64,000 bases of DNA, from contig CAYRDC010000002.1 in the NCBI GenBank assembly GCA_964422925.1, positions 68,991 through 132,990 on the forward strand, written 5' to 3'. The notes beneath the pieces are model-generated. The model was given only the letters and a program-made list of their open reading frames with translations. It searched no databases and was not told the origin of the DNA. The translations under genes and the position numbers were made by a program. The stretch comes from an uncultured Chitinophagales bacterium. Lineage in GTDB: Bacteria > Bacteroidota > Bacteroidia > Chitinophagales > S012-47. This document shows positions 32,818-52,557 of this stretch, piece by piece (positions within the stretch are counted from its first letter, which is position 1; every line of letters begins with the position of its first letter).

Positions 32818-32840
32818 GGTTCAGGTGTTTTTCAGATTTT

Positions 32841-33844: not shown

Positions 33845-33880
33845 TGACAGGTTTTGGTTCGCCCCGCTTTAACGCAAGGG

Positions 33881-35128: not shown

Positions 35129-35189
35129 GGTACAAAACTACGGCAACCGGAATATTCTCGCCCGCAGGTGAATTACTAACTTTGCCCCC

Positions 35190-36698: not shown

Positions 36699-37894
36699 GC
36701 CGGCTCCCGCAAAATCACCAGTCACTGGATACGAAAAAAAGACATATCGCGATACTCGGTTCCACCGGCAGCATCGGGAAACAGGCCCTGGAAGTGATAG
36801 CCGCTTACCCGGAAGTGTTTGCGGCAGAACTGCTTACGGCCAGCACCAACAGCGACCTGCTCATCGAGCAAGCCCGGCAGTTCCGGCCCAACATGGTGGT
36901 CATTGTTGATGAATTGGAATATGGCAAGGTGCGAGACGCCCTCGATCCCCTGGGCATCAAGGTGTTTACCGGAGCCGCCTCGCTGGAGCAGGTGGTTCAG
37001 TTTGATGAGGTGGACATCGTGCTGACCGCCATAGTCGGTTTTGCCGGCCTGCATTCCACCCTGAAAGCCATCGAGGCGGGCAAAACCATCGCGCTGGCCA
37101 ACAAGGAGACGCTGGTGGTGGCCGGCCACCTGATCACTTCGCTGGCCCGGGAGAAGGGTGTAAACATTTACCCGGTGGATTCCGAACATTCTGCCATATT
37201 CCAGTGCCTGGCGGGAGAGTTTCATAACCCGGTGGAGAAGATTTTTCTTACGGCTTCCGGAGGCCCGTTCCGGGGCATGTCGATCGAGGATTTGCGGCAA
37301 ATCACCCCCGCCCAGGCTCTCAGGCATCCCAACTGGAACATGGGCGCCAAAATCACCATCGACTCCGCCACGCTGATGAACAAAGGCCTCGAGGTAATCG
37401 AAGCCCGGTGGCTGTTCGGCCTGGTGCCCGAAAAAATCGAAGTGATCGTTCATCCGCAGTCCATCATTCACAGCATGGTGCAGTTCCGGGATGGCTCCAT
37501 CAAGGCGCAGCTGGGCCTGCCGGATATGCGCCTGCCGATACTGTACGCCCTGGCATATCCCCAGCGCCTGCCGACCAATTACCCGCGGTTTGACATAGCC
37601 GATTACCCGTCCCTGACCTTCGAGAAACCGGATACCGATACCTTCCGGAACCTGGCCCTGGCTTACGAAGCCCTGCGGAAAGGCGGCAACCTGCCCTGCG
37701 TGCTGAATGCCGCCAATGAAGTGGCTGTACAGTCTTTCCTGGAAAGGAAAATTCCTTTCCTATCGATTCCCGAGCTGGTCGAAAAGGCAATGGAATATAT
37801 TCCCTTTGTCAGCGAACCCGTTCTGACCGACCTGGAAAACACAGACCGGGAAACCAGGTCCTGGGTATCGGAGCAGGTGGCAAATGACCATTGA
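36677..37894 (+). CDS. dxr: 1-deoxy-D-xylulose-5-phosphate reductoisomerase
   Basis: ...KKRHIAILGSTGSIGKQALEV...PVDSEHSAIFQCL...NKGLEVIEA. The start is uncertain. There is no ATG or GTG upstream of the Rossmann motif, and the only in-frame start is a TTG at 36677 that overlaps the GH3 gene end by 22 nt. Confidence 0.9.
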   Translation: MDRGKGVSRLPQNHQSLDTKKRHIAILGSTGSIGKQALEVIAAYPEVFAAELLTASTNSDLLIEQARQFRPNMVVIVDELEYGKVRDALDPLGIKVFTGAASLEQVVQFDEVDIVLTAIVGFAGLHSTLKAIEAGKTIALANKETLVVAGHLITSLAREKGVNIYPVDSEHSAIFQCLAGEFHNPVEKIFLTASGGPFRGMSIEDLRQITPAQALRHPNWNMGAKITIDSATLMNKGLEVIEARWLFGLVPEKIEVIVHPQSIIHSMVQFRDGSIKAQLGLPDMRLPILYALAYPQRLPTNYPRFDIADYPSLTFEKPDTDTFRNLALAYEALRKGGNLPCVLNAANEVAVQSFLERKIPFLSIPELVEKAMEYIPFVSEPVLTDLENTDRETRSWVSEQVANDH

Positions 37895-37994
37895 TTCCGG
37901 GCAGGCTGAAAAGGTAATTATGGTTTTATAACCGACAAAATACTTCCAATTAGGCGCAGGTCGTTAACTTTGCCCGGCAAACAATTTATTCCGC

Positions 37995-39320
37995 ATGGTC
38001 ATTCTTATCAAAGCCCTCCAGTTTTTCCTGAGTCTTTCCATTTTAATTATCCTTCACGAGTTCGGACATTTCCTGGCTGCCAGGCTTTTCAAAACCCGTG
38101 TGGAGAAGTTTTATCTTTTCTTCAACCCGTGGCTGACTTTGTTTAAAAAGAAAATCGGTGACACCGAATACGGCATAGGCTGGCTGCCCCTGGGCGGATA
38201 TGTCAAGATTGCCGGGATGATTGACGAATCGATGGACCGCGAAGCACTGAAAAAACCTCCGCAGCCGTGGGAATTGCGCAGCAAGCCGGCCTGGCAGCGC
38301 CTGATCATCATGCTGGCAGGGATTATCGTCAACGCTATCCTGGCCATCCTGATTTTTGCCATGGTTCTCTTTGTCTGGGGCAAACCCTACCTGCCCCCGG
38401 AAAACCTGACCTACGGGGTGTATGCCGATTCCATAGGGACGAAAATCGGCATACAGGATGGCGATAAAATCATTGCCATAGACGGCCGGCCGTTCAAGGA
38501 TTTCAACAAGCTGAATTACGAAATCATTATCCATGAAGCCACCTCGCTGGATGTGGAAAGAAACGGGGAGATCATCACCCTGCCCATCCCGGAAGGCACG
38601 ATCAATGCCATCATCACTTCGCGTAACCGCAGCATTGCCTATCCGCGGTTCCCGGTGAAAGTCAAGGAAGTGATTCCGGGCAGCCCGGCTGAGGAGGCGG
38701 GCCTGCAGCCGGAAGACCAGATCATTGCCGTAAACGGGGAGGATACCTGGTTTTTTCACCGGTTTCGCAAAGCGTTGCAGGACAATAAGGACCGGGAGAT
38801 CGACCTCTCGGTGGTCCGCGTGCCGGACACCCTGCATTTGCATCCGGTGGTTCGGGAAGACGGCACGATCGGGTTTCAGGGGTATTCCCTGGCGTATTAC
38901 CTGAAACAGGATACGCTGCATTACGGGTTTTTTGCTTCCTTCCCGGCCGGCCTTCATGAAGCGTGGGTCAACCTGAAAGACTATGTAAAGCAAATCGGTC
39001 TCATCTTTACCTCCAAGGAAATCAAGGCCAGCGAATCGGTCGGAGGGTTTATCAGCATCGGGAGCATATTCGGTGATACCTGGGACTGGCACCGTTTCTG
39101 GAATATGACGGCCTGGCTGTCCATTGTGCTGGCCTTCATGAACCTGTTGCCCATTCCCGCCCTGGACGGGGGCCATGTGCTGTTCATCCTGGTGGAAATG
39201 GTGAGCGGGCGCAAACCGAGCGACAAATTCCTGGAATATGCCCAGGTGGTAGGCATGATCCTGCTGATTGCCCTGCTGATCTTTGCCAATGCCAACGATG
39301 TAATCAGGCTATTCAGGTAA
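37995..39320 (+). CDS. rseP: RIP (site-2) metalloprotease RseP
   Basis: 441 aa. It has HEFGHFLAARLF (HExxH), PDZ-like central region and C-terminal NLLPIPALDGGH. Confidence 0.9.
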   Translation: MVILIKALQFFLSLSILIILHEFGHFLAARLFKTRVEKFYLFFNPWLTLFKKKIGDTEYGIGWLPLGGYVKIAGMIDESMDREALKKPPQPWELRSKPAWQRLIIMLAGIIVNAILAILIFAMVLFVWGKPYLPPENLTYGVYADSIGTKIGIQDGDKIIAIDGRPFKDFNKLNYEIIIHEATSLDVERNGEIITLPIPEGTINAIITSRNRSIAYPRFPVKVKEVIPGSPAEEAGLQPEDQIIAVNGEDTWFFHRFRKALQDNKDREIDLSVVRVPDTLHLHPVVREDGTIGFQGYSLAYYLKQDTLHYGFFASFPAGLHEAWVNLKDYVKQIGLIFTSKEIKASESVGGFISIGSIFGDTWDWHRFWNMTAWLSIVLAFMNLLPIPALDGGHVLFILVEMVSGRKPSDKFLEYAQVVGMILLIALLIFANANDVIRLFR

Positions 39321-39338
39321 TACGGAGAAAAGGCAGGT

Positions 39339-40067
39339 TCAAACAGCCGGGGTCAGGGCTTTTATTTCCGGCATTTCGTTATACAACCTTCCGTCCAGTT
39401 TTCGCCCTGCTTTTTTCTTCTTGAATCCGCCCCACTGTTTGAAGAAAAATTTAACGCCCGTCTCTTTACACTGGTCTCGGATTTCAAGCACCCATTCCTT
39501 TTTCATGGGCCTGGCCTTCGGTCCGGATTCACCGCCAACAATGACCCAATCAATGTCATGCAGATTTAAACCGGGTAATGGGCCGAGCAGCGGTTCCAGC
39601 GAAAGGAATTTTATAAATGCCCCGGTGCTTCGCAGGTAATCAATCCGCTGAATAACTTTTTGATTCTCCACGGAAACACCCATCCAGATATTTGGGGTCC
39701 ATTCCAGCAGGGGGCTGTATTCCGCCAGGATATCAGCCCGTTTGGTCAGCAACTGGAAAGTATGCATGGGGTTATCGCGCATGACCCTGAACACTTCCCG
39801 GATGTAGTCAAGCGGAACGTCTTTGTGAAACAAATCGCTCATGGAATTCACGAACACCAGTTTGGGCTTCTTCCAAGTATAGGGAATGTTAAGCGTATCC
39901 GGATGCAGGGTTAGTTTAAACCCGTTCCGGTATTTGGGCTGCCCCATTGCCTTCAGGCGTCTGGACATAATTTCCGCGTAGCAGAATTTACATCCATCCG
40001 AGATTTTCGTGCACCCTGTGGTGGGGTTCCAGGTCATTTCCGTCCATTCAATGCGGGATTGGGCCAT
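39339..40067 (-). CDS. DUF5131 / phage Gp37-Gp68-family protein (three-Cys motif)
   Basis: 242 aa. [32 protein letters not shown] is the N-terminal three-Cys cluster. ...[15 protein letters not shown]...FFFKQWGG matches the family signature as I recall it. Confidence 0.8.
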
Positions 40068-40069
40068 GA

Positions 40070-40915
40070 CTAAAAGTTTAGTGATGTTTGGGGATTGGCG
40101 TACTTCTGGACTTCTCTCCAGAATTTATTTCCTAAATTATGTTTTGAAAAAAAAGCAAGATAATAAAGAGGGAGATTTCTTTTATCAGACCTGATCTGTT
40201 GAAAGGTGTCTGTTACTTTATAACCCAATTTTTCCATATTCATTTTATAATGTCTAGCTAAGAATCGAACAAAGCTCTCATTACTTTCAATTTTTTCATT
40301 TCTCCACTCAGAATTATCAATGAACAGGTCGATTTTATCGTTTTCGCTTTCAAGGTATGTTTTATAATTGCGGTTTGCGTCCATATGCAATGCTAGAAGA
40401 ATAAGAAAGTCCATTTTAAGGACTCCCAACTTTTTAATGGTATTAAAATGAAGGTTCAATGAGTATGGATCAACAAAACAAAATGATAACACACCACTTT
40501 CTCTCGAATAGGAAGGTATTACGTTCTTAACCTCGTCAACAATTTTATTAATGTCTCCATTAAAAAATACAACGTCTTTATCGGGAAAAATACGATTGAC
40601 ACGAACCTGTAGGGCTTCAATTAAACCTTTTTTCTTCTCGCAGAAGATATATTTTGTGAATGGTACAGGGAGCTATAAAGATATTAATGGTGAACCATAA
40701 ATGATTTGGTTTGTATTTCTAATTCTGGAATAGCCACTCCCTGCAAACAAATCTAAATAGATGAGATTAGGCCATTGAGCATGCATGCTTCTTGTAAATA
40801 TTTGGCAATAATGTCCGAAAAGCTTGTATTTCTGTAGAGCCCAACTACCTACTTCAGGAGCAGGTAAACCATCGTCTTGAGCTTCGATTATTGGATTCCA
40901 ATTATCTTTAGACAT
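40070..40915 (-). pseudogene. TcmP-like (three-Cys-motif partner) protein, interrupted by one in-frame TAG
   Basis: Manual translation shows the two track ORFs (40673..40915 and 40070..40492) share one frame. They join through ...YGSPLISL*LPVPFTKYIFCEKKKGLIEAL...SRESGVLSFCFVDPYS..., and the only stop is the TAG at 40675-40673. The N-terminus contains LDLFAGSGY, a SAM-methyltransferase motif-I-like sequence. Confidence 0.7.
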
Positions 40916-40916
40916 T

Positions 40917-41288
40917 TCAATTATATTGAATCACCCCTTTAACGATCCCTTCAATTTTTACTGCTTCCGGTTTTGCCAGAATCGGGGAATATTTTGCCTG
41001 GTTTTCAGAAGCTAATATAACCTGTTTCTGCTGTATGAAAAATTTCTTGATAAGCACCATTGAATTGTACACGCACACTACCATGTCTCCGTTTTCCGCG
41101 ACCCGGCTTTTTTTGGCTATCACCAGGTCTCCCGTTTTGATTTTTGGTTCCATGGAATCCCCCCTGGCTTCGACCAGGAAAGCATCTTTTGCCGGAAACC
41201 GGATAAGCCGGGAAGCGATGGGGATACGGTCTATCGGTTTGCCGTCCAGTATGGAACCCTCCGGGCCGCATCGGGCCATGCCGTACAA
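40917..41288 (-). CDS. S24 (LexA/UmuD-type) peptidase domain protein without a DNA-binding domain
   Basis: It has the GDSMEP Ser motif and a downstream Lys (VLIKKF). A C-G dipeptide lies at the position of the UmuD Cys24-Gly25 self-cleavage site, only 6 residues from the TTG start (41288). The alternative ATG is at 41279. The gene lies 1 nt upstream of the TcmP start. Confidence 0.72.
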   Translation of the reverse strand: MYGMARCGPEGSILDGKPIDRIPIASRLIRFPAKDAFLVEARGDSMEPKIKTGDLVIAKKSRVAENGDMVVCVYNSMVLIKKFFIQQKQVILASENQAKYSPILAKPEAVKIEGIVKGVIQYN

Positions 41289-41373
41289 ATTCAGATAAAC
41301 AATCGGCTTTTCCGGTTCGGGAAGAATATCTTCTTTTATCGCGTAAAATGATTGAGTAAATTCATTAGAAAGA

Positions 41374-41392
41374 ACAAGTATATAATACTTGT
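41374..41392. promoter_or_regulatory. Candidate operator palindrome ACAAGTAT-ata-ATACTTGT
   Basis: The inverted repeat has perfect 8-bp arms. It lies in the AT-rich divergent region between the S24 operon and the Ubl cassette. Confidence 0.3.
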
Positions 41393-41522
41393 AATAACAT
41401 AAATGAGAATGCTTTATTATTTCTAGTAGTGCTATATTTACTTACATTAAACTTACGTTTAGAATTAAAATTGTAAGAGTCTGTAAAAAGAAAACGCGCA
41501 TAATAATATAGCAGATGGGTAT

Positions 41523-41552
41523 TTTGAAATAATACTTTCTTTTTTATATTTG
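41523..41552 (+). promoter_or_regulatory. Candidate Bacteroidota sigma-A promoter (-33 TTTG / -7 TATATTTG) for the Ubl cassette
   Basis: TTTG lies at 41523-41526 and TAnnTTTG at 41545-41552, with an 18-nt spacer. The -7 box is 67 nt upstream of the ATG at 41619. This is a motif match only. Confidence 0.3.
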
Positions 41553-41618
41553 CTATGTAAATACCTAATTTTAACGAGAAAAAGAAATGAATTGTATTAC
41601 CTTTTAAAAAAGAGAATT

Positions 41619-41867
41619 ATGGAAAAATCAAAGAAAGAAGAGAATTATGAAATCACAATTGATCAAAAGCACTACAAAGTTAAGGATCGGTTTATTACAG
41701 GAAGTCAAATTAAATCATTGGCTGGCGTGCCTTCAACTTATGGTGTTTGGTTAAAAGTTAAGGGACCTCACAACGATAAGGAGATAATGGACGATGAAAA
41801 GGTTGACTTAAAAGAACATGGTGCGGAGCATTTCTTTACTGGTTCAAAAACAACAACGGCAGGATGA
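41619..41867 (+). CDS. Ubiquitin-like beta-grasp protein ('multiubiquitin'-type domain, single copy) ending in -Ala-Gly
   Basis: 82 aa from the ATG at 41619: MEKSKKEENYEITIDQKHYKVKDRFITGSQIKSLAGVP...DDEKVDLKEHGAEHFFTGSKTTTAG*. The pattern (I.v....y.v....itG.qI..lAG.p...L......d..i.dde.vdl...g..F) matches my recollection of the multiubiquitin family. The stop overlaps the next gene's ATG (ATGA). Confidence 0.72.
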   Translation: MEKSKKEENYEITIDQKHYKVKDRFITGSQIKSLAGVPSTYGVWLKVKGPHNDKEIMDDEKVDLKEHGAEHFFTGSKTTTAG

Positions 41868-42247
41868 CATTCTTACCGGAGGCTGATAGGGACTATTTAA
41901 GATCGAAGGAGTATCAATTTGAGGAAATAGTTGATAGTAATAGAAATGGACTGGTAATTAGAGATTATTGTTTGCCAAAAGAAAAGTTCAATATTGAAAT
42001 AGCAGACTTATTAATATTAATACCGCCTTGCTATCCTGATGTAAAACCTGATATGTGGTATTTTTACCCCGCCATTTTTTTAACTCCCTCAAACCGGGTA
42101 ATACCACAAACAGAGGGCACTATACATTTTGGAGGTAGAGAATGGCAAAGATGGTCTCGTCATTTTCCAGCTAGTGAATGGAGAGCTGGAATAGATGGAA
42201 TACATACTTACTTAAAGAAAATAGATTCATCATTATTAAATGCTTAA
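41864..42247 (+). CDS. Prokaryotic E2/UBC-like protein (family-E-like)
   Basis: 127 aa. LILIPPCYPDVKPDMWYFYP resembles the UBC YPxxPPxxxF strand-loop. It is followed by FGGREWQRWSRHFP. The gene is translationally coupled on both sides (ATGA and TAATG overlaps). Confidence 0.72.
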   Translation: MTFLPEADRDYLRSKEYQFEEIVDSNRNGLVIRDYCLPKEKFNIEIADLLILIPPCYPDVKPDMWYFYPAIFLTPSNRVIPQTEGTIHFGGREWQRWSRHFPASEWRAGIDGIHTYLKKIDSSLLNA

Positions 42248-43632
42248 TGAGATATACATTAACATTGCAGGAGTCACATTACGAAGCACTTCGTAATCAT
42301 TTAATTCGAAAAGATCAACGAGAAAGGGTTGCTTTTATAATTTGTGGACGTTCCAAAATTGGAAGTCTTGAAGAACGATTTCTTACCCGGGAAGTTATTC
42401 TTTTTGGTGATGACAAGCTATTGATTTCTCGTCCTAATCAGGTAAAATGGGACAACTACCATTTTATAAAGATATTAAAAGATATTGAAACTAAAGGTTT
42501 TGCTGTTGTAATTATTCACAATCATCCATCTGGTTTTGAAGATTTTTCAAAAGCAGATGATGAGGGGGAATATCATCTTTTTAAATTAACTTTTAACCGT
42601 AATGGTGGAACCAGACCACATGCAAGTTTGATCATGATGCCTGATGGACTCATATTTGGTAGAGCTTGGAAAAGTGATTTGTCCAATGAACCGCTTTCAT
42701 TGATAAGAATAATCGGAAAAACATTTCAGCTATATTATCCAAACAGGTTAAAAAATTATCAGTCTCCTGAGGCTTTCCATCGACAGCAATTGGCATTTGG
42801 AAAAGCTTTAATTCAAGACCTATCTCAAATAACTTGTACAGTCGTTGGGGCAGGAGCAACGGGTTCTGCTACTGCTTTGCTATTAACCCGTTTGGGAATT
42901 GGAACTATTAATATCATAGATAAGGACATTGTTGAGAAGACTAATTTAAATCGATTGCATGGTGCAACAGTCAAGGATATAGGCAAAAGCAAAGTGGATG
43001 TCTTAAGGAAGAGTATTGAAGAAATAGGATTGGGGACGCGTGTAAATGTATCAAGTGATTGGGTTGATGCTAAATCCAGCATTGAACTTCTGAAGAGTAG
43101 TGATATAATTTTTGGTTGCACAGATGATCATGCTGGTAGAATATTACTCAATCGTTTTGCCTATTTCTATCTTACACCGGTAATTGATATGGGGTTATTT
43201 ATTAAACTTAAAGATGATTCTTCTGGAATGCAGAGTCTGCAGGGAAGGATATCTTATTTATATCCTGGAAGTGATTGCCTTTTGACAAATGGGAACATTA
43301 ATATGGATATTGCGATTGCTGAAAACCTGAAGAGAAAAAATCCGGAGCAGTATAATGACCTAAAAAATGAAAAATATGTGATAGGAGAGGGAAATCAATC
43401 TCCATCTGTAGTAACATTTACTACACAAATTGCATGCATGGCAGTTAATGAATTTCTTAACCGAATACAGAAATTTAATCCAAATGGATTTCAATCTCAT
43501 AAATTATATTTTTTTAACTTAGATGAAAAAATTGTTCCTCATAATGACAAAAAGAATTGCTGTCAAATCTGTGGCGTTGATTCAAATTGGGGTAGAGGAG
43601 ACATGGAGCCTTTCTTAGATATGGCAATGTAA
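42247..43632 (+). CDS. JAB/JAMM deubiquitinase-like domain fused to ThiF/MoeB-type E1 adenylyltransferase
   Basis: 461 aa from the ATG at 42247. There is a perfect JAMM motif H91-N-H93-x7-S101-x2-D104 (HNHPSGFEDFSKAD, nt 42517-42558). The Rossmann motif VVGAGATGSATALLLTRLGIG (nt 42847-) is followed by IIDKDIVEKTNLNRLHG and GCTDDHAGR. The C-terminus has CCQICG. Confidence 0.85.
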   Translation: MRYTLTLQESHYEALRNHLIRKDQRERVAFIICGRSKIGSLEERFLTREVILFGDDKLLISRPNQVKWDNYHFIKILKDIETKGFAVVIIHNHPSGFEDFSKADDEGEYHLFKLTFNRNGGTRPHASLIMMPDGLIFGRAWKSDLSNEPLSLIRIIGKTFQLYYPNRLKNYQSPEAFHRQQLAFGKALIQDLSQITCTVVGAGATGSATALLLTRLGIGTINIIDKDIVEKTNLNRLHGATVKDIGKSKVDVLRKSIEEIGLGTRVNVSSDWVDAKSSIELLKSSDIIFGCTDDHAGRILLNRFAYFYLTPVIDMGLFIKLKDDSSGMQSLQGRISYLYPGSDCLLTNGNINMDIAIAENLKRKNPEQYNDLKNEKYVIGEGNQSPSVVTFTTQIACMAVNEFLNRIQKFNPNGFQSHKLYFFNLDEKIVPHNDKKNCCQICGVDSNWGRGDMEPFLDMAM

Positions 43633-43643
43633 CTAATATAAAA

Positions 43644-44060
43644 ATGAATTTATACCATAAAGCGGTTGGATATCTTTACTGGAAGTTTGGACTATTCAAA
43701 TATCGAGCTAAAATGATTTTGGAGAACCCAAAACCTGAAGAAATTAAAAAAAATATAGTTTATATCGTGGGTGGTAAGAATTATGTTAAATGGGCATACC
43801 TTAAATGCCCAGATTGTTGTGGTGAAACCATTTTATTGTCACTTGTATCTAACAAAGGTCCTTCATGGAAAATAAAACAAGATAAAAAGGGACGAGTAAC
43901 GAGATATCCTTCTATTTTTAAACAAGATGGATGTAGAAGCCATTTTTTTATTATTGATGGAAATTTAGTTTGGTTGAATAATGAAAATGAAGAAGAGCAC
44001 AAAGAATATTTCAATGTTATTGGGAAGCAGGCAGATACATTTTGTTCAATAAAGCTGTGA
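43644..44060 (+). CDS. Small Cys/His protein, DUF6527-like (recollection), fourth gene of the Ubl cassette
   Basis: 138 aa. WAYLKCPDCCGETILLSL...PSWKI...RYPSIF...GCRSHFFIIDGNLVW. It starts 11 nt after the E1 gene. An alternative start is Met24. Confidence 0.6.
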   Translation: MNLYHKAVGYLYWKFGLFKYRAKMILENPKPEEIKKNIVYIVGGKNYVKWAYLKCPDCCGETILLSLVSNKGPSWKIKQDKKGRVTRYPSIFKQDGCRSHFFIIDGNLVWLNNENEEEHKEYFNVIGKQADTFCSIKL

Positions 44061-45153
44061 AGAATGAATCTAGTTCTACGATAGTTTGAGATTGGAAGGA
44101 TATGATTTCAGCCAAACTATCAAGCATATAAACAATTTCTTGTTGTTTCTCAATGTTGGGAAGTGGCATTTTAATTTGATAGAATTTATCCATTTTTAAT
44201 CTTCGCCTGTTAGTACTTCCCTCGCTCGCAGCTTTGCAGGCATTATCAAAAAGCATGGTGCGGGAAAAATAATCGAAATACTTCGCTAATACACGGTCAG
44301 TGAAACTAAAAACTGGAAAGTCGTTGGTAACTATAGCACCGTCAAGCTCGGGCGGTATTAAACCCATTGCTCCATTCCTGGCATCAATTTTTGAGATGAT
44401 AAAATAACCTTTCCTTACGATGAATTGGGCTGATCTGATTTTAGAACCTTGAATTATTTTTCTAAGTTGGACCCCTTTGTGATCCATTTTTACAGTAACC
44501 TGTTTGTATGCCTTTTCAGGAAGTATTTCAGCTGGATTCCTTTCGTGTACAAGTATTTCTCCGATTTCTATATTAGGGTATATGTTGTAATAATCGGTAA
44601 ATATGCTGTTATGTAAATTTGTATATATCCTTCCCTGCTCCCTCCTCAGCTTTTCAATTTCCTCCATTCGCTGCCGCACGGCATCCAGCTTAGCTACAAT
44701 GCGCTTTTGCTCTTCCAGTGGGGGGAGGGGGATTTCTACTGATAGGAATTTATCGGGTTTTATTTCGGTCTTTATTCCACTAGGGAAACTTTGTTTTAAA
44801 TAAAAGGAAAATTCTCTACTTCTTAAGAAGTACCATAAATATTTTAAATCGACCTTTTTGTCATCGGGATAGTAAGACGAATAATGAATGGTGGCAGCTA
44901 ATTCGCAACCAGTGTCATTGATTGCTATTGCTCCTTTCTCGACATTTATTCCCGAAATAACCAAGTCATTCGGTTGAATAGAAATTAGCTTTGTATTGGA
45001 GGTGCCATCATTGCGTATTAAAATAGTACCATCATTAAATCCAATCTTGGCAACAATTGGAATATCGCCTATAGCAACTTTGATAGCATCAGGTAGTTCG
45101 TTCCTATTATACAGAACCTCTCCCAATGGTGATTTTGGCCATCTATGCTTCAT
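44017..45153 (-). CDS. hsdS: Type I restriction-modification specificity subunit
   Basis: 378 aa with two target-recognition domains. These are separated by the conserved helices PLPPLEEQKRIVAKLDAV...IEKLRREQ and the C-terminal PLPNIEKQQEIVYMLDSL. Confidence 0.88.
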   Translation of the reverse strand: MKHRWPKSPLGEVLYNRNELPDAIKVAIGDIPIVAKIGFNDGTILIRNDGTSNTKLISIQPNDLVISGINVEKGAIAINDTGCELAATIHYSSYYPDDKKVDLKYLWYFLRSREFSFYLKQSFPSGIKTEIKPDKFLSVEIPLPPLEEQKRIVAKLDAVRQRMEEIEKLRREQGRIYTNLHNSIFTDYYNIYPNIEIGEILVHERNPAEILPEKAYKQVTVKMDHKGVQLRKIIQGSKIRSAQFIVRKGYFIISKIDARNGAMGLIPPELDGAIVTNDFPVFSFTDRVLAKYFDYFSRTMLFDNACKAASEGSTNRRRLKMDKFYQIKMPLPNIEKQQEIVYMLDSLAEIISFQSQTIVELDSFFTALLNKMYLPASQ

Positions 45154-45218
45154 TTCCCACTGACTTGTTTTGATTCTCAGTCTAAAGCCTTATATATTTT
45201 CCCACCTTCCGGGGTATA

Positions 45219-46409
45219 TCAAAAGTTCTTTGACAACTGTTCTTCAATAAACTGCTGTAATTCATCTTCACTGGGCAGTTGCAATTTGTAGCGGCTCACC
45301 AGCACATTATCCTTATCGGCCAGTGCGTAGCGCACCATCTGGGGTTTGCTTTCGGTACAAAGCAGAATGCCAATAGGAGGGTTGTCTCCTTCCTGCATCA
45401 CCTTTTCCTTGTAATACTGCAGGTAAACATTCAGTTGTCCGATGTTTTCGTGCGTAAAACCTTCGGTTTTCAGCTCGATCAATACATGACACTTAAGGAT
45501 TCGATGATAAAATACCAGATCAATGTAGTAGTATTCGTCATCTATCAGTATGCGTTTTTGGCGAGCTTCAAAACAAAACCCGTATCCCAGTTCGAGCAGG
45601 AACTGCTGTAAATGATCAATCAGGGCTCTTTCGAGTTGCGCCTCTTCAAGCGTCTCATTAATGGGTAAGTCCAGGAATTCGAACACCATCGGGTCGCGAA
45701 GTGAAAGCGCTGTGTTTTCCGTTTCTGCTTTTGTATTGGCTAACTGACTTAATTTTTCCTTGTTGGCCGATAATCCTGAACGCTCGTAGAAAAGCGAATT
45801 TATTTGCCGCTTTAATTCCCTGACGCTCCAGGTGCCTTTTATACATTCGACCTCGTAGAAAGTGCGTTTTAGATTATCCTTTATCTTAATTAGCTCAACA
45901 AAGTGTGAGAATGATAAATGCGTTATCAGTTCCGTAGGGGGAACCGAAAGCCTGCTTGGGGATTCTTTTTGTGGTAAGGGTTGTTTCCCCGTAACCTGAC
46001 TTTTTTGCAACCTTTCCCGAGATAAGCGTGCCGTTAATTCGTGGGACAGCGTCCCACGAATTACAGGGTTGTCCAATATGTGGGACAGTGTCCCGCGAAT
46101 TTGATCATTGTCCGGATTGGCAAAGAGTTCGGAGAAGCGTGGGTAGGTGTTATAAAAAATTCGGAACCTTCTTAATTCACCATCACTTACGTTTGACAAT
46201 CCTTTTCTTTTTAAAGCATTGGAAAGGCGCACAAGCAATTTATCGCCATATCGTGCCTTGTCGCTGCCGTTTTGTTCATACTCAACAATATAATAACCGA
46301 TCAACCAATTGCGTATGGTGAGCAGCATATTGATGGCGGATTTCGCCCTGCCCTGAAGCTCATTGTGAACGGCAATTATTTTGTCAGTAAGATGTTTGAG
46401 ATTCATCAT
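45219..46409 (-). CDS. DUF1016 / YhcG-family PD-(D/E)xK nuclease-domain protein
   Basis: 396 aa. The N-terminal INMLLTIRNWLIGYYIVEYEQNG... is typical of YhcG. The C-terminal YYIDLVFYHRILKCHVLIELK is a D...ExK motif. A 4-nt overlap with hsdM is present. Confidence 0.8.
   Translation of the reverse strand: MMNLKHLTDKIIAVHNELQGRAKSAINMLLTIRNWLIGYYIVEYEQNGSDKARYGDKLLVRLSNALKRKGLSNVSDGELRRFRIFYNTYPRFSELFANPDNDQIRGTLSHILDNPVIRGTLSHELTARLSRERLQKSQVTGKQPLPQKESPSRLSVPPTELITHLSFSHFVELIKIKDNLKRTFYEVECIKGTWSVRELKRQINSLFYERSGLSANKEKLSQLANTKAETENTALSLRDPMVFEFLDLPINETLEEAQLERALIDHLQQFLLELGYGFCFEARQKRILIDDEYYYIDLVFYHRILKCHVLIELKTEGFTHENIGQLNVYLQYYKEKVMQEGDNPPIGILLCTESKPQMVRYALADKDNVLVSRYKLQLPSEDELQQFIEEQLSKNF
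46036..46102. repeat. Two copies of a GTGGGACAG(C/T)GTCCC(A/G)CGAATT hairpin-forming unit inside the DUF1016 CDS
   Basis: 46036-46062 is a perfect 12-bp-arm palindrome, AATTCGTGGGAC-agc-GTCCCACGAATT. A diverged copy lies at 46080-46102. The protein shows the corresponding duplicated IRGTLSH peptide. Confidence 0.6.
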
Positions 46410-47956
46410 TCCACCATTCGCTGAATTTCTTCCATCAATTTGAAAATTTTCAGTTCTTTCTCCATGATGGAACGCACAAGTTCCTTTGGATCCCTGTATT
46501 CAAACTCGCTCTTACGGTTGGGGTTTTTGAGGTCAAGGTTCACCGTTACATTGCCTCTGTCGTCCCGGCCGATAACCTCAGCTGCCGTAACCTTCCAGGC
46601 ATGCTCGTTTTCTTCCCGTTTATTCCACCAGGCCTTTACCGGTTCAAATTCGGAGTATTGCAGGGGACGGGTTTTGCTGTATTTCCTGCGGTCTTCCGGT
46701 ACGGGTACTTCATAGTACCATATTTCCTCCGTGGGGCCACCATGTTCGAAAAACAGCAGGTTGCAGGGAATGTCGGTATAAGGTGCGAACACGCCATCGC
46801 CCAGGCGCACAATGGTGTGCAGGTTAAAGTCCTCCAAAAGTTGTTTTTTTATTCGTGCGGCCACGCCATCGGCAAACAGTGTTCCGTTGGGTACCACCAC
46901 GGCTGCCCTGCCGCCCCGGGTACCGGCTTTTTTCCTTCTCAGTTTCCGCATAATGAGCTGTAAGAAAAGCAGGGCCGTTTCGGTTGTCCGTTTGTCTTCG
47001 GGGAAATTGTTCAGGATGCCTTTTTCTTCTGACCCGCCAAAAGGCGGGTTAGTTATAATGATGTCTACCCGTTCGCTGTCGCCAATATCTTTCAGGGGTT
47101 TCCCCAGGGAATTGCGCGGGTCAATCCGGGGAAAATCCATCCCGTGGAGAAGCAGGTTCATCTGGCAAAGCAGGTAGGGCAGGGGTTTTGCTTCCCCGCC
47201 ATAAACAGACCTGGTTTGCAGGATTTTCGAATCCTCTACGGTTTTGCATTGTTTTTTCAGGTGTTCAAATGCCTGCACCAGGAAGCCGCCTGTGCCGGCT
47301 GCCGGGTCCAGAACGGTTTCACCCAGCTGTGGGTTTATCATTTCCACCATAAACTGTACAACCGGGCGGGGGGTGTAGAATTCGCCCGCGTCTCCGGCAG
47401 CGTCCCGCATTTCCTTCAGAAGGCTTTCATACAGGTGGGCTAAGGTATAAATCTCTTCATTGGAGGTAAAGTGGATGCCGTCAATTTTATTAATGACATC
47501 CCGCAGTAAATAGCCATTGATCATCCGGTTAACCACACCCCTGAAAACAGTGGCGATTACGTCTTTGCGATTTGTGCCGTTTTCGCTTTGTAATGAGCGC
47601 AGATAAAACAATAGGCCGGGACCTTCTGTGCCGTCCGGCAGGGTGCATTTTTCCTGGTTTATAAAAGCCAGCAGGTCATCGCCCGTAAGCCCCTGGTTCC
47701 GGGCCCAATCGCGCCAGCGGTAGGGCGCTTCAATGGCCGGTCTGTATGGCTTGCCGGCCAGTTGGGCTTCCGTCTCCTGCATTGTTTCCATATCATCCAG
47801 AAATTTGAGGAACATAATCCAGGTAAGCATGGGCAGCCGGTCTGCATCACCGTTCAACCCCTTGTCTTTCCGCATAATATTGCGGCAGGACTTTACGATA
47901 GCTGAGAGCCTTTGCGCAGTGGTCAGCGGTTTTTGTTCTTTTTTTCTTCTACTCAT
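46406..47956 (-). CDS. hsdM: Type I restriction-modification N6-adenine DNA methyltransferase subunit
   Basis: 516 aa. It has the HsdM N-domain, GEFYTPR, DPAAGTGGFL (motif I) and IIITNPPFGG (motif IV). Confidence 0.93.
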   Translation of the reverse strand: MSRRKKEQKPLTTAQRLSAIVKSCRNIMRKDKGLNGDADRLPMLTWIMFLKFLDDMETMQETEAQLAGKPYRPAIEAPYRWRDWARNQGLTGDDLLAFINQEKCTLPDGTEGPGLLFYLRSLQSENGTNRKDVIATVFRGVVNRMINGYLLRDVINKIDGIHFTSNEEIYTLAHLYESLLKEMRDAAGDAGEFYTPRPVVQFMVEMINPQLGETVLDPAAGTGGFLVQAFEHLKKQCKTVEDSKILQTRSVYGGEAKPLPYLLCQMNLLLHGMDFPRIDPRNSLGKPLKDIGDSERVDIIITNPPFGGSEEKGILNNFPEDKRTTETALLFLQLIMRKLRRKKAGTRGGRAAVVVPNGTLFADGVAARIKKQLLEDFNLHTIVRLGDGVFAPYTDIPCNLLFFEHGGPTEEIWYYEVPVPEDRRKYSKTRPLQYSEFEPVKAWWNKREENEHAWKVTAAEVIGRDDRGNVTVNLDLKNPNRKSEFEYRDPKELVRSIMEKELKIFKLMEEIQRMVE

Positions 47957-48000
47957 TGTCTGAATCAGGATTTGTAGAATTACAGGATTCTCTGAATTAA

Positions 48001-48432
48001 TTAATCTCGATGCAATACAGACTTTCTTGCTTTGGAATTTTTCCGCGCTGGCTTTGGATGATATTTGGGGTTAAACATGAGTTTGTATTCCAGGCTTTTA
48101 CCGCCAAAATTTATCAGCAGTCCCAATGGAAAGTCATAAGCAACTGTGTAGTTTTTTGCCTGGGCTATGTGTACATCCTCTAATGCAACCAAGGCTTTTA
48201 TTTCCACCACTACTTTGTCCTCAACAATAAAATCAGCCCTACGGGTGCCTACCTCAATATTTTCATAATAAACAGTTTGTTCCTGCTCCCTCACAAATCC
48301 CAATCCTGCTCTTTCAAATTCAATGGCAAGGCATCGTTGATAAATCACTTCCTGAAAACCGGGCCCCATGGTATTGTGCACTTTCATGGCACACCCGATT
48401 ATCGTGTATGTAATCTCATCTTTAATGGACAT
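48001..48432 (-). CDS. GxxExxY-family protein
   Basis: 143 aa. GPGFQEVIYQRCL (G-x-x-E-x-x-Y) and ...ADFIVEDKVVVEIKA form a PD-(D/E)xK-like core. Confidence 0.8.
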   Translation of the reverse strand: MSIKDEITYTIIGCAMKVHNTMGPGFQEVIYQRCLAIEFERAGLGFVREQEQTVYYENIEVGTRRADFIVEDKVVVEIKALVALEDVHIAQAKNYTVAYDFPLGLLINFGGKSLEYKLMFNPKYHPKPARKNSKARKSVLHRD

Positions 48433-48491
48433 GGAGATTCTTCATTTCAATTCTGTACATTCATCAATTCTGAGAATTCTGATTTAGACAG

Positions 48492-50888: not shown

Positions 50889-51188
50889 CAACAATAAACA
50901 AAAATATAGTATTTCTCTCAATTTGTAGGCGTAACCATAACCACTTCCAGTAAATGAGTTATAACTGCCATGCATTGGATTAAAATAGAATGTCCTTCAG
51001 TTTGACTTTGACAGATAGGTGTGCTGAACTTTGTCATAGTACGGATTGGTAGCAAATAGACTACAATCCTTCCCGCACCGTTTATACCTCGATTGCGTAC
51101 CTGTAGGGTATGGCGTAGCTTTGAAGCCGTTGCCGGCTCAGTCCTGGCATCACGCGCTTTTTTGCCCGGACTATATCGTTATCCTTCT

Positions 51189-52034
51189 ATGATCAAAAAG
51201 ATTCTTCCCCTGTGTATTTTCCTGGCCGCGAGCCTGATGGGTTATACCCAGGAAGCAGATACTTCTGCCTCATTGTTTGTTCGCGTGATGATCATTCCTT
51301 TTAACCCGCAGGATTACCTTTCGGATGCCGACCAGCAACTGGCCGAGTATAACCAGCTATCCGTGGAGCAGGTGCGCGAGCGTTTCCGCTACGGGCTGGA
51401 AGCCAGCCTCAATGCCCGTATTTTAAGTGATGATAAATTTGATACCCAGCGCTTTGTCAGCGATGACGAGGAACTGAATGAAGACCTGAAGCAGATTTAC
51501 TACGGATACGGCCTCAAATATGAAAAGCCCAAAGTGCCTGTGCTGGAAGATGACCAGCGAGCCAAAAAGAGCTTCGGTGAAAAGCTGGCGGCCCTGTTCC
51601 GGGACGACAGCCCCTCGCCCGATGCCCTGGATGAAGTGAACCTGGGCGAAGTCTATGCCAGCACCCCGGAAGACGAATACCTGAACGTGCACCTGGCCAG
51701 CCAGCGCATGCTGCCTGAACTGGCTGAAAAATATGATGTGGATTTTTTCGTGTTCCTCAACATGTTTGAAGTGAAGACCGATTACGAGACCTGCCTGGAC
51801 CGGGCAACCAATAATTTCAGGCGGGAGTTTACGGTTCATTTTTCCATATTCGATGCCAAAGGCCGGCAGGTTTACGGCAATGCCGCCCGCCTGTACACCG
51901 ATTCCAACACCCTTGACATGACGGAAATCGTTAGCCGCTACATCCCGAAACTCACGGCTTTCATTTACGAACAAATTCCCCGCAACCCCAGGGTGAAATA
52001 CAGGAAATCAAAACCTTTGACGGCAGATGAATGA
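51189..52034 (+). CDS. Hypothetical secreted protein
   Basis: From the ATG at 51189 the signal peptide is MIKKILPLCIFLAASLMGYTQ. The family was not recognised. Confidence 0.5.
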   Translation: MIKKILPLCIFLAASLMGYTQEADTSASLFVRVMIIPFNPQDYLSDADQQLAEYNQLSVEQVRERFRYGLEASLNARILSDDKFDTQRFVSDDEELNEDLKQIYYGYGLKYEKPKVPVLEDDQRAKKSFGEKLAALFRDDSPSPDALDEVNLGEVYASTPEDEYLNVHLASQRMLPELAEKYDVDFFVFLNMFEVKTDYETCLDRATNNFRREFTVHFSIFDAKGRQVYGNAARLYTDSNTLDMTEIVSRYIPKLTAFIYEQIPRNPRVKYRKSKPLTADE

Positions 52035-52551: not shown

Positions 52552-52557
52552 CGAACG

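What the first reader, a model, noticed from the sequence alone, without database searches (positions are those of the whole stretch)
41619..44060. Translationally coupled Ubl - E2 - JAB::E1 - small Cys/His protein cassette inside a restriction island
**What the sequence shows**
- Four plus-strand genes are packed with start/stop overlaps: ATGA at 41864-41867, TAATG at 42245-42249, and an 11-nt gap before 43644.
- Gene 1 is an 82-aa beta-grasp-type protein ending ...TTTAG-stop.
- Gene 2 is a 127-aa protein with a UBC-like PPCYPDVKPDMWYFYP segment.
- Gene 3 is a 461-aa fusion. It has a textbook JAMM metalloprotease motif (HNHPSGFEDFSKAD = HxHx7Sx2D) joined to a ThiF/MoeB-type adenylation domain (VVGAGATGS..., IIDKDIVEKTNLNRL, GCTDDHAGR).
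- Gene 4 is a 138-aa protein with CPDCCG and GCRSHF motifs.

**Established context**
E1/E2/JAB modules occur in anti-phage systems (CBASS Cap2/Cap3 and the Bil/ISG15-like system). Comparative genomics has predicted several further prokaryotic Ubl-conjugation operon classes, including one built from multiubiquitin, E2 family E and a JAB-E1 fusion.

**Inference**
This cassette belongs to that little-studied class. It sits between a type I R-M system and a phage-type DUF5131/TcmP operon in an AT-rich island, so a phage-defence role is the most economical hypothesis. Its targets, effector logic and the role of gene 4 are not deducible from sequence.
Basis: partly seen in the sequence, partly recalled or inferred. 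Interest (0 to 1): 0.9.

Follow-up and report, generated by a model that had tools for sequence, protein, structure and literature searches.

The report
Unfused Type I Bub ubiquitin-like operon
The four genes are a real, intact bacterial ubiquitin-like protein-tagging operon of the already described and crystallised "Bub" (formerly 6E/DUF6527) family, sitting in a defence island of a Bacteroidota genome; it is a correct call but not a new kind of system, and what the family does for the cell is still unknown.

Summary
Four tightly packed plus-strand ORFs (41619-44060) encode a one-domain Ubl ending in Gly, a Prok-E2_E E2, a JAB-E1 fusion and a DUF6527 protein.

The JAB-E1 matches crystallised Citrobacter BubCD over its full length (E=8e-47). 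The E2 matches BubB by sequence (E=3e-12) and by fold (TM 0.88).

This class was named Bub and worked out biochemically in 2024. It relays the Ubl through oxyesters (E1 Tyr, then E2 Ser) instead of thioesters, and DUF6527 (BubE) is a Ser/His protease that removes conjugates. Every published catalytic residue is present here and invariant in about 80 relatives.

One difference from the studied exemplar: Ubl and E2 are separate genes (ATGA overlap), so the Ubl is made with its terminal Gly already exposed. That is not new either. It applies to 66 of 78 related loci and about half of a broader sample. It does argue that the retained JAB domain does more than cleave a fusion precursor.

The cassette is a low-GC (about 35% against 50%) insert between a type I R-M system and a decayed DUF5131/TcmP pair. 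An anti-phage role is plausible but unproven; the only reported tests were negative. Verdict: new member of a known kind, modest interest.

The parts
41289..41618 (+). AT-rich (25% GC) upstream region of the operon. It has a Bacteroidota-type -7 box, TATATTTG, at 41545-41552, about 66 nt before the bubA ATG.
   Evidence: GC by gene. The motif is found by search. It is the only plus-strand TAnnTTTG in this intergenic region. It aligns with the same motif upstream of bubA in L001, L002, L007 and L025. That TAnnTTTG is the Bacteroidota -7 consensus comes from my own knowledge. Promoter function is inferred, not shown. No inverted-repeat operator was found.
41619..41867 (+). bubA: an 82-aa ubiquitin-like protein with a single beta-grasp (Multi_ubiq) domain. 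It ends ...TTAG, with Gly82 (41862-41864) directly followed by the stop, so the reactive C-terminus needs no processing.
   Evidence: Pfam PF14452, E=6e-17. phmmer matches beta-grasp domains of E. coli ZDHYS365 BubA (9cd2, 4e-8) and BilA (8u38). The conserved ...TT(E/A)G end is seen in relatives.
41864..42247 (+). bubB: a 127-aa cysteine-less E2. The catalytic Ser98 (42155-42157) sits with His100 and Asp63.
   Evidence: Pfam PF14462, E=6e-40. Citrobacter BubB 9eae, E=3e-12, with QRWSRH identical. D63/S98/H100 are invariant in 76-77 of 77 relatives, and the window's Cys36 falls in a variable column; no Cys is among the invariant or near-invariant columns of a 30-sequence alignment. AF2 model pLDDT 90.6. 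Foldseek top hit is 9eae_C, TM 0.88, rmsd 1.4 A.
42247..42741 (+). bubC part of bubCD: JAB/JAMM metallopeptidase domain (residues 1-165) with Glu26, His91, His93, Ser101 and Asp104.
   Evidence: Aligns to the JAB domain of Citrobacter BubCD, with E28 and D104 matched. The pentad is intact in 78-79 of 80 relatives, including 37 of 38 operons whose Ubl ends in Gly. The Pfam Prok-JAB hit is sub-threshold.
42742..43632 (+). bubD part of bubCD: single ThiF/MoeB-type adenylation domain. It has the Gly loop G201/G203/G206, Asp225, Arg236, Asp293 and the crossover-loop Tyr377 (43375-43377). There is no catalytic-Cys domain.
   Evidence: Pfam ThiF, E=4.5e-38. BubCD 9ea4, E=7.7e-47 over residues 7-438. 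R236 aligns with R227 and Y377 with Y370 of Citrobacter BubCD. All these residues are invariant in 80 of 80 relatives.
43644..44060 (+). bubE: a 138-aa DUF6527 protein with a Ser90 (43911-43913) / His100 (43941-43943) dyad, Zn-site cysteines C55, C58, C59 and C97, and a hydrophobic N-terminal extension. The last ~14 codons overlap the 3' end of hsdS on the opposite strand.
   Evidence: Pfam PF20137, E=7.5e-17. S90 and H100 are invariant in 76 of 76 relatives. The alignment shows a ~17-aa extra C-terminal tail and a CPDCCG knuckle where relatives have CPCGCG.

Best explanation
This is an intact Type I Bub (bacterial ubiquitination-like; formerly 6E.1/DUF6527) operon in its unfused form: bubA, bubB, bubCD and bubE.

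**Mechanism, by homology to the reconstituted Citrobacter system**
1. The E1 domain of BubCD binds the C-terminal tail of BubA and adenylates Gly82 with ATP (Arg236, Asp293).
2. Tyr377 on the crossover loop attacks the adenylate to form a BubA~Tyr oxyester.
3. BubA is handed to Ser98 of BubB, activated by His100 and Asp63, as a second oxyester.
4. BubB transfers BubA to lysines of target proteins.
5. BubE, a Zn-stabilised Ser90/His100 protease that may be membrane-associated, removes BubA from targets.

**What differs here**
- BubA is translated with Gly82 already exposed, so the JAB domain has no BubAB fusion to cut.
- Its fully conserved active site implies a second catalytic job. The most likely ones are trimming or recycling of BubA conjugates, including BubA-BubB auto-conjugates.

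**Setting and role**
- The cassette is a horizontally acquired low-GC module in a defence island of a Bacteroidota chromosome.
- Its biological role is most likely anti-phage or anti-mobile-element immunity, or a stress response. That role and its targets are unknown.

**Shown here:** gene structure, family membership, presence of every catalytic residue, and fold of the E2.

**Inferred:** enzymatic activity, the oxyester chemistry in this particular operon, the JAB role, the promoter, and the biological role.
For: - **Family hits:** Pfam hits to all four families.
- **BubCD:** full-length phmmer match to crystallised Citrobacter BubCD, E=7.7e-47. It aligns E28, D104, R227 and Y370 with E26, D104, R236 and Y377.
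- **BubB:** match E=3.3e-12 with an identical QRWSRH motif. The AF2 model (pLDDT 90.6) superposes on 9eae_C at TM 0.88 and 1.4 A.
- **Residue conservation:** all catalytic positions are invariant across 76-80 relatives and present in the window.
- **No thioester route:** the E2 Cys36 column is variable, no Cys column is conserved in a 30-sequence E2 alignment, and the E1 has a single adenylation domain without a Cys domain.
- **Published biochemistry:** oxyester relay, mutants Y370F, S333A/H335A and R227A, and BubE S92A/H102A.
- **Conserved operon:** the same four-gene order is found in 66 of 78 related loci across many phyla. RefSeq annotates it on Synechocystis pSYSX.
- **JAB retention:** the pentad is intact in 37 of 38 operons whose Ubl ends in Gly.
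- **Island context:** type I R-M, PDC-S02 and PDC-M41 hits. The bub genes are 31-36% GC against 50% for the window.
- **Mobility:** relatives occur on 127 plasmids, 59 of them conjugative, and in no phage record.
Against: - No experiment exists for this operon or for any unfused or Bacteroidota Bub operon.
- The Bub authors could not show phage protection for any Bub operon in E. coli.
- This locus has no CapW/BrxR or CapH+CapP-type regulator, although 42 of 80 relatives have an HTH/ImmA pair. How it is controlled is therefore unknown.
- Small deviations from the family consensus could reduce activity:
  - the penultimate Ubl residue is Ala instead of the near-universal Glu (TTAG against TTEG);
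  - the BubE Zn knuckle is CPDCCG instead of CPCGCG;
  - the BubE C-terminus reads through into hsdS antisense sequence.
- Two neighbouring genes are decayed, so the island is not uniformly maintained.
- The preprint's own view is that JAB may act only on the BubAB fusion. The alternative JAB role proposed here rests on conservation alone.
Confidence: 0.85

Rival explanations
1. The operon is a Bub system whose biological role is not phage defence. It would act instead in stress or DNA-damage response, or in maintenance of or competition between mobile elements, by tagging host or plasmid proteins.
For: - The authors could not find any Bub operon that protects E. coli from phage.
- Many Bub operons are wired to DNA-damage-responsive regulators.
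- Relatives are common on plasmids: 127 records, 59 of them conjugative.
Against: - The cassette lies among recognised defence genes: type I R-M, PDC-S02 and PDC-M41.
- The related Bil and Cap2/Cap3 systems are anti-phage.
- The negative tests were heterologous, run in E. coli with an unstated phage panel.
- No phage carries the system, which fits a host-side function.
Confidence: 0.35
2. The cassette is an inactive or decaying remnant: horizontally acquired, unregulated, and no longer under selection in this host.
For: - Adjacent TcmP has an in-frame TAG, and the S24 repressor gene lacks its HTH half.
- No linked regulator is present.
- The Ubl penultimate residue is Ala rather than Glu. The BubE Zn knuckle is shifted and its tail reads through into hsdS antisense.
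Against: - All four ORFs are intact with start/stop coupling.
- Every catalytic residue is retained.
- A Bacteroidota-type -7 box lies at the position conserved in relatives.
- The locus is identical or nearly so (99.97-100%) in contigs from two separate metagenome samples.
Confidence: 0.1
3. It is a conventional cysteine-thioester ubiquitin-like system (Bil-like or eukaryote-like), or a Cap2/Cap3-type accessory module of a CBASS/Pycsar system.
For: - It has the same domain vocabulary: Ubl, UBC-like E2, ThiF E1 and JAB.
- PADLOC Cap2 'E1-E2' models hit the E1 core at 1e-17.
- The E2 contains two cysteines, C36 and C56.
Against: - The E2 position equivalent to the catalytic Cys is an invariant Ser. 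The Cys36 column is variable and no Cys column is conserved in the 30-sequence alignment.
- The E1 has one adenylation domain and no Cys domain. Its best matches are BubCD at 1e-47, against 1e-5 for Cap2.
- PADLOC hits cover only the generic ThiF core.
- No CD-NTase, cyclase or effector gene is adjacent.
Confidence: 0.03
4. It is a sulfur-carrier or biosynthetic ThiF/MoeB-ThiS/MoaD-type module (CysO/Mec+ or siderophore type) rather than a protein-conjugation system.
For: - NCBIfam's best hits for the E1 domain are ThiF and MoeB, at 1e-22 to 1e-19 and all far below their cut-offs.
- JAB + E1 + small beta-grasp protein also occurs in sulfur-transfer pathways (from my own knowledge).
Against: - An E2 and a DUF6527 protease are present.
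- The Ubl belongs to Multi_ubiq, not ThiS/MoaD.
- There is no rhodanese domain or biosynthetic neighbour.
- The orthologous Citrobacter proteins make protein conjugates.
Confidence: 0.02

Closest known systems
Type I Bub operon of Citrobacter sp. RHBSTW-00271 (BubAB, BubCD, BubE; PDB 9EA4, 9EA5, 9EAE, 9EAV; bioRxiv 10.1101/2024.11.21.623953)
   Same: - Same four domain families in the same order.
- JAB-E1 fusion aligned end to end.
- E2 fold at TM 0.88.
- All catalytic residues shared: JAB E/HxH/S/D, E1 Arg and crossover Tyr, E2 Asp/Ser/His, and BubE Ser/His with Zn cysteines.
   Different: - Ubl and E2 are separate genes with an ATGA overlap instead of one BubAB polypeptide. The Ubl is born with its Gly exposed.
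- The Ubl has one beta-grasp domain (82 aa) instead of three.
- The tail is TTAG.
- The BubE knuckle is CPDCCG.
- The host is a Bacteroidota member.
- No tRNA-borne element signature or linked regulator was detected.
Unfused four-gene Bub operons in public genomes, for example Synechocystis sp. PCC 6803 plasmid pSYSX (SGL_RS01620-SGL_RS20235), and Bacteroidota MAGs and Tenacibaculum sp. (L001-L004)
   Same: - Identical gene order and split architecture.
- The Bacteroidota relatives share the 80-aa one-domain Ubl ending in Gly, the ATGA overlap, 60-65% BubCD identity, and the -7 box position.
   Different: - pSYSX has a two-domain-sized Ubl (152 aa) and a divergent HTH + ImmA/IrrE regulator pair; the window has neither.
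- None of these operons has been studied experimentally, as far as the searchable literature shows.
[quoted passage not shown]
   Same: - Standalone Ubl.
- DUF6527 BubE.
- Oxyester chemistry through an E1 Tyr and an E2 Ser.
- The Ubl beta-grasp is related (9cd2, E=4e-8).
   Different: - In Type II the E2 is fused to the E1 and there is usually no JAB domain.
- The E2 Ser is accompanied by Lys+His rather than His+Asp.
- The window has JAB-E1, a free E2, and the His+Asp configuration.
Bil (bacterial ISG15-like) systems BilABCD
   Same: - Ubl + E2 + JAB + E1 encoded together.
- The Ubl is related at sequence level (8u38, E=2e-7).
- Defence-island setting.
   Different: - Bil uses catalytic cysteines and an E1 with tandem adenylation domains plus a Cys domain.
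- Its JAB is a separate protein, and it has no DUF6527.
- An anti-phage function is demonstrated for Bil but not for Bub.
CBASS Type II Cap2/Cap3
   Same: - ThiF-type E1 core: PADLOC E1-E2 models at 1e-17 and Cap2 structures at 1e-5.
- A JAB peptidase acts as antagonist.
   Different: - Cap2 is an E2-E1 fusion with cysteines that conjugates a CD-NTase, not a Ubl.
- No cyclase or effector is present here.

Membership tests
Type I Bub (6E.1/DUF6527) operon | Ubl of the Multi_ubiq beta-grasp family with a conserved C-terminal Gly | tested here: met
   PF14452, E=6e-17. PDB beta-grasp matches. Ends ...TTAG-stop, aligned with the ...TTEG of relatives.
Type I Bub (6E.1/DUF6527) operon | E2 of family Prok-E2_E lacking a catalytic Cys, with an invariant Ser plus His and Asp | tested here: met
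   PF14462, E=6e-40. BubB 9eae, E=3e-12. D63/S98/H100 match D299/S333/H335 and are invariant. Fold TM 0.88 to BubB.
Type I Bub (6E.1/DUF6527) operon | JAB/JAMM peptidase fused to the N-terminus of a single-adenylation-domain E1 with a conserved crossover-loop Tyr and no Cys domain | tested here: met
   Full-length match to BubCD, E=7.7e-47. E26/H91/H93/S101/D104, R236 and Y377 are present and invariant.
Type I Bub (6E.1/DUF6527) operon | DUF6527 (BubE) gene with a Ser/His dyad and a Zn-binding Cys cluster | tested here: met
   PF20137, E=7.5e-17. S90 and H100 are invariant in 76 of 76 relatives. C55, C58, C59 and C97 are present, but the second Cys of the knuckle is shifted by one position.
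Type I Bub (6E.1/DUF6527) operon | Ubl encoded as an N-terminal fusion to the E2 (BubAB), as the preprint defines Type I | tested here: not met
   - Here the two are separate ORFs in different frames with an ATGA overlap.
- This is not an artefact: 66 of 78 related loci are split, and 95 of 96 close E2 homologues are standalone.
- In an unbiased library there are 75 standalone E2s against 63 fusions among the top 150 representatives.
- I therefore treat fusion as a variable trait, not a defining one. The companion paper's methods also say 'fused E2 domains (when present)'.
Type I Bub (6E.1/DUF6527) operon | ATP-dependent Ubl-target conjugation through Tyr and Ser oxyester intermediates; BubE-dependent deconjugation | not testable with these tools
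   Shown only for the Citrobacter and E. coli ZDHYS365 proteins. Inferred here from residue conservation.
Type I Bub (6E.1/DUF6527) operon | Linked CapW/BrxR or CapH+CapP regulator (present in about 39% of operons, so typical rather than defining) | tested here: not met
   No HTH/ImmA relative occurs anywhere in the window, although 42 of 80 related loci have one. The only nearby candidate is an S24 peptidase fragment without an HTH, which is not linked to Bub elsewhere.
Bil (BilABCD) system | Catalytic Cys in the E2, and an E1 with inactive + active adenylation domains and a Cys domain | tested here: not met
   Invariant Ser at the E2 active site and no conserved Cys. The E1 has a single adenylation domain, best matched by BubCD.
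CBASS Type II (Cap2/Cap3) | E2-E1 fusion next to a CD-NTase and an effector | tested here: not met
   The E2 is free and the E1 is fused to JAB. PADLOC hits cover only the ThiF core. No cyclase or effector is present among the neighbours.
Anti-phage defence system (functional class) | Confers protection against phage infection | not testable with these tools
   Only contextual support from the defence-island neighbours. PADLOC-DB 2.0.0 and NCBIfam 20.0 have no Bub model. The published attempts were negative.

The most novel reading that the evidence does not exclude
**Reading.** In unfused Bub operons such as this one, the Ubl is translated with its reactive Gly already exposed. The conserved JAB domain is therefore not a precursor-processing enzyme.

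**What it would be instead.** It would be a second, mechanistically distinct eraser or proof-reader working alongside the serine protease BubE. For example, one enzyme could clear isopeptide-linked conjugates or BubA-BubB auto-adducts, while the other acts on ester-linked or membrane-proximal conjugates.

**Consequence.** This would revise the published suggestion that JAB acts 'primarily or solely' on the BubAB fusion. It would make the split operons the natural system in which to separate writing from two kinds of erasing.

**Basis.** The evidence is conservation of the JAB pentad in 37 of 38 such operons, and nothing more.
Probability: 0.45. Interest if true: 0.5.

Novelty: new member of a known kind. 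Interest (0 to 1): 0.3.

Why it matters
**As a discovery, little.** The family was predicted by comparative genomics years ago. It has since been named, crystallised and reconstituted, and the exact four-gene layout is already annotated in RefSeq genomes.

**Residual value, in three parts.**
1. This is a clean example of the unfused, one-domain, born-mature form of Type I Bub. My survey finds that form at least as common as the fused form that was studied.
2. The unfused form poses a sharp and cheap question about what the JAB domain does when there is nothing to process.
3. A Bacteroidota copy with a Bacteroidota-type promoter, sitting in a defence island, suggests testing function in a Bacteroidota host. 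The only reported phage challenges were in E. coli and failed.

The central open question, what Bub systems are for, is not brought closer by this window alone.

Tried and rejected
- **Frameshift or sequencing error splitting a BubAB fusion: rejected.**
  - The Ubl ends exactly on the conserved Gly and the E2 starts at the overlapping ATG.
  - The same split is seen in 66 of 78 loci and in 95 of 96 close E2 homologues.
  - The locus is 99.97-100% identical in two independent metagenome contigs.
  - No canonical slippery heptamer precedes the stop (read).
- **Alternative starts (42178 for gene 3, 41550 for gene 1): rejected** from homologue alignments.
- **S24 peptidase (40917-41288) as the operon's regulator: rejected.** It has no HTH and is not linked to Bub in any of 80 loci.
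- **Operator-like inverted repeats in the upstream region:** none found. The sigma-70 and terminator scans were no better than shuffles.
- **att-like repeats of tRNA-Leu bounding the island:** none of 12 nt or more. The repeats across 39.3-45.3 kb look like chance AT-rich matches.
- **Dedicated defence or annotation models:** PADLOC-DB 2.0.0 gives only generic Cap2 'E1-E2' hits, and NCBIfam 20.0 gives only sub-threshold ThiF/MoeB hits.
- **Phage carriage:** none at E<=1e-10.
- **Preprint Table S1**, to see whether unfused Type I operons are listed: not held in the library.
- **Later literature on Bub or DUF6527:** nothing beyond the two 2024 preprints in the searchable library. The PDB entries were released in September 2025.
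- **Not attempted:** structure prediction of the Ubl, BubE or complexes.

Full report
**1. Observation**

- 41619-41867: 82 aa, ending ...TTTAG-stop
- 41864-42247: 127 aa
- 42247-43632: 461 aa
- 43644-44060: 138 aa

The junctions are ATGA (41864-41867), TAATG (42245-42249) and an 11-nt spacer. Translational coupling is an inference from these overlaps.

| Family | E-value |
|---|---|
| Multi_ubiq | 6e-17 |
| Prok-E2_E | 6e-40 |
| ThiF | 4.5e-38 |
| DUF6527 | 7.5e-17 |
| Prok-JAB | 0.0027 (18 bits, below the 25-bit cut-off) |

**2. What it is**

A literature search for DUF6527 leads to two 2024 preprints from one laboratory. The "6E/DUF6527" operons are renamed Bub, for bacterial ubiquitination-like. 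Type I consists of Ubl-E2 (BubAB), JAB-E1 (BubCD) and DUF6527 (BubE). Type II consists of Ubl, E2-E1 and DUF6527.

Direct comparisons with solved structures:
- The window's JAB-E1 matches crystallised Citrobacter BubCD over essentially its whole length (residues 7-438, E=7.7e-47).
- The E2 matches Citrobacter BubB (E=3.3e-12) with the catalytic QRWSRH stretch identical.
- The Ubl matches beta-grasp domains of E. coli BubA and of BilA.
- An AlphaFold2 model of the E2 (pLDDT 90.6) superposes on BubB chain 9eae_C at TM 0.88 and 1.4 A. Eukaryotic E2 and UEV folds follow only at TM about 0.5.

**3. Catalytic residues**

The PDB chains are numbered native + 2. I derived this from the D104A mutant sequence. 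On that basis the published functional residues map as follows:

| Citrobacter residue | Role | Window residue |
|---|---|---|
| BubCD E28, D104 | JAB active site | E26, D104 (with H91, H93, S101) |
| BubCD R227 | adenylation | R236 |
| BubCD Y370 | crossover-loop Tyr | Y377 |
| BubB D299, S333, H335 | E2 active site | D63, S98, H100 |
| BubE S92, C99, H102 | protease dyad and Zn site | S90, C97, H100 |

In alignments of 76-80 relatives these positions are invariant or nearly so. The window's E2 Cys36 falls in a variable column, and no Cys is among the conserved columns of a 30-sequence E2 alignment. The E1 has no Cys domain.

The window's operon therefore has everything needed for the published chemistry:
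1. Adenylation of the Ubl Gly.
2. A Ubl~Tyr oxyester on the E1.
3. A Ubl~Ser oxyester on the E2.
4. Transfer to lysines.
5. Removal by the Zn-dependent Ser/His protease BubE.

Activity in this operon is inferred, not shown.

**4. The one structural difference: split Ubl and E2**

The preprint states that in all Type I operons the Ubl is fused to the E2 and is released by the JAB domain cutting after the conserved Gly. Here the Ubl stops right after that Gly, and the E2 starts at the overlapping ATG in another frame.

I tested whether this is an artefact. It is not:
- 95 of 96 close E2 homologues in a 5.8-billion-protein collection are standalone proteins of about 127 aa.
- I counted 80 GTDB genome loci encoding BubCD relatives together with the window, 81 in all. 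Of these, 66 are split (including the window), 12 fused and 3 incomplete.
- An unfiltered HMMER scan of 1.84 billion cluster representatives gives 536 relatives at E<=1e-3. Among the top 150 there are 75 standalone E2s, 63 Ubl-E2 fusions, 2 E2-E1 fusions and 10 fragments.
- The same split layout is annotated in RefSeq on Synechocystis PCC 6803 plasmid pSYSX.
- Contigs from two separate metagenome samples carry the window's locus at 99.97-100% identity.

Among split loci, 39-40 Ubls end exactly on the Gly, as here. Another 26-27 carry a 2-7-residue tail after it.

Fusion is therefore a variable trait of the family, and the window is an ordinary member of the unfused form. The loci set is biased toward relatives of the window's BubCD. 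The HMMER scan is the less biased figure.

**5. A consequence worth stating**

[quoted passage not shown] In the window there is nothing to cleave.
- The JAB pentad is nevertheless intact here and in 37 of 38 born-mature operons. It is also intact in 27 of 27 tailed and 12 of 12 fused operons.
- The ratio of JAB-domain to E1-domain identity is only slightly lower in the born-mature class (0.70, against 0.76-0.79 in the others).

That pattern argues for an additional catalytic role, most simply deconjugation or recycling. This is inference from conservation only.

**6. Context**

Host and core genes:
- The host is a Bacteroidota member. The basis is a T9SS sorting domain on ORF 58153-60969; that T9SS is characteristic of Bacteroidota comes from my own knowledge. 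TAnnTTTG boxes, which I know as the Bacteroidota -7 consensus, lie just upstream of many gene starts.
- The core genes dxr and rseP end at 39320.

The island then runs as follows:

| Coordinates | Strand | Feature |
|---|---|---|
| 39339-40067 | - | DUF5131 / PDC-M41B |
| 40070-40915 | - | TcmP-like PDC-M41A, with one in-frame TAG |
| 40917-41288 | - | S24 peptidase fragment lacking an HTH |
| 41289-41618 | | 25%-GC spacer |
| 41619-44060 | + | bub operon, 31-36% GC |
| 44017-45153 | - | hsdS, overlapping bubE by 44 nt |
| 45219-46409 | - | YhcG-type nuclease / PDC-S02 |
| 46406-47956 | - | hsdM |
| 48001-48432 | - | PDDEXK_3 |
| 48492-50975 | - | hsdR |

- The window averages 50% GC, so the cassette looks horizontally acquired.
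- Its closest relatives (60-65% BubCD identity) are in Bacteroidota MAGs and Tenacibaculum.
- A TATATTTG box at 41545-41552 aligns with the same motif in those relatives. Genome-wide the motif is not enriched over shuffles, so promoter function is only plausible.
- No CapH/CapP- or CapW-type regulator is present, although 42 of 80 relatives have an HTH/ImmA pair.
- BubCD relatives occur on 127 plasmids, 59 of them conjugative, and in none of 50,697 phage records.

**7. Function**

However, the Bub authors report being unable to find a Bub operon that protects E. coli from phage, and they leave the role open between antiphage immunity and stress response. PADLOC-DB 2.0.0 and NCBIfam 20.0 contain no Bub models.

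My estimates:
- Roughly 0.45 that the natural role is anti-phage or anti-mobile-element defence.
- 0.35 for another stress or maintenance role.
- 0.1 that this copy is inert.

**8. Rivals rejected**

The following were considered and rejected. The reasons are given under Rival explanations and Tried and rejected.
- A thioester Bil-like system.
- A Cap2/Cap3 module.
- A sulfur-carrier ThiF/ThiS module.
- A frameshifted fusion.

**9. Verdict**

The system belongs to a family that is already named, crystallised and biochemically reconstituted, and the window's particular layout is common in public genomes.

It is a new member of a known kind. Interest is modest (0.3). It lies mainly in the born-mature Ubl with a retained JAB domain, and in the availability of a Bacteroidota example for functional tests.

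Noticed in passing
window 40070-40915 (-), stop at 40673-40675: The TcmP-like gene (PADLOC PDC-M41A) is one continuous reading frame interrupted by a single in-frame TAG. The same stop is present in an independent metagenome contig (L082, 100% identity). Its partner DUF5131/PDC-M41B (39339-40067) is intact. This is probably a recently inactivated candidate defence pair. TcmP is 34% GC and its partner is 49%.
   Followed up: partly
window 40917-41288 (-), and 41289-41450: The S24 peptidase ORF has the Ser45/Lys82 dyad and a Cys-Gly cleavage-site-like N-terminus but no HTH domain. Its frame continues upstream through linker-like sequence, then hits a stop where GC falls from about 50% to about 25%. 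It looks like the 3' half of a LexA/CI-type repressor gene truncated at the left edge of the low-GC bub insert.
   Followed up: partly
window 44017-44060: bubE and hsdS converge and overlap by 44 nt. BubE carries about 17 extra C-terminal residues absent from relatives, apparently read-through into hsdS antisense sequence. This suggests the right-hand junction of the insert lies here.
   Followed up: partly
window 45219-46409 and 48001-48432 (-); L040 1-2635: The type I R-M operon carries two embedded PD-(D/E)XK genes. One is a YhcG/DUF1016 nuclease (PADLOC PDC-S02) between hsdS and hsdM. The other is a PDDEXK_3 protein between hsdM and hsdR. A Methylomonas defluvii locus (L040) also has hsdM-yhcG-hsdS about 2.5 kb from its Bub operon.
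   Followed up: no
window 51093-52643: tRNA-Leu(CAA) at 52558-52643 lies at the right side of the island. It is preceded by two ORFs (51093-52034 and 52027-52551) with no Pfam hit. No repeat of the tRNA (12 nt or more) was found within 36000-52400, so no att sites were identified.
   Followed up: partly
window, e.g. 5857, 16754, 35177, 36672, 37965 (+); 9349, 10434, 35133, 54276 (-): TAnnTTTG boxes sit a few to a few tens of nucleotides upstream of many gene starts, although the motif is not enriched overall (48 matches against 41.7 expected). This fits Bacteroidota-type promoters and very short leaders.
   Followed up: no
L007 5626-6004: In one Bacteroidota MAG the bubB gene is broken into 55-aa and 65-aa ORFs while bubA and bubCD look intact. 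This is either a decayed copy or an assembly error.
   Followed up: no
L001 7731-8912 (-), L002 7731-8798 (-), L006, L025 8111-8818 (-): Four of the closest Bacteroidota loci share a signal-peptide-bearing protein encoded convergently just downstream of bubE. It is absent from the window, where hsdS occupies that position.
   Followed up: no
L081 11663-11761: The JGI metagenome contig that carries the same locus is 99.97% identical to window 31864-43526 but diverges in its last ~100 nt, inside bubCD. This is probably an assembly end artefact, though it could reflect population heterogeneity at this point.
   Followed up: no
26-27 of the 80 related loci, e.g. L043, L048, L038, L069: Many unfused BubA proteins carry a 2-7-residue tail after the conserved Gly (for example TTEG-GAA and TTEG-VS), reminiscent of eukaryotic ubiquitin and SUMO precursors. 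The family therefore spans three states: fused, tailed and born-mature.
   Followed up: partly
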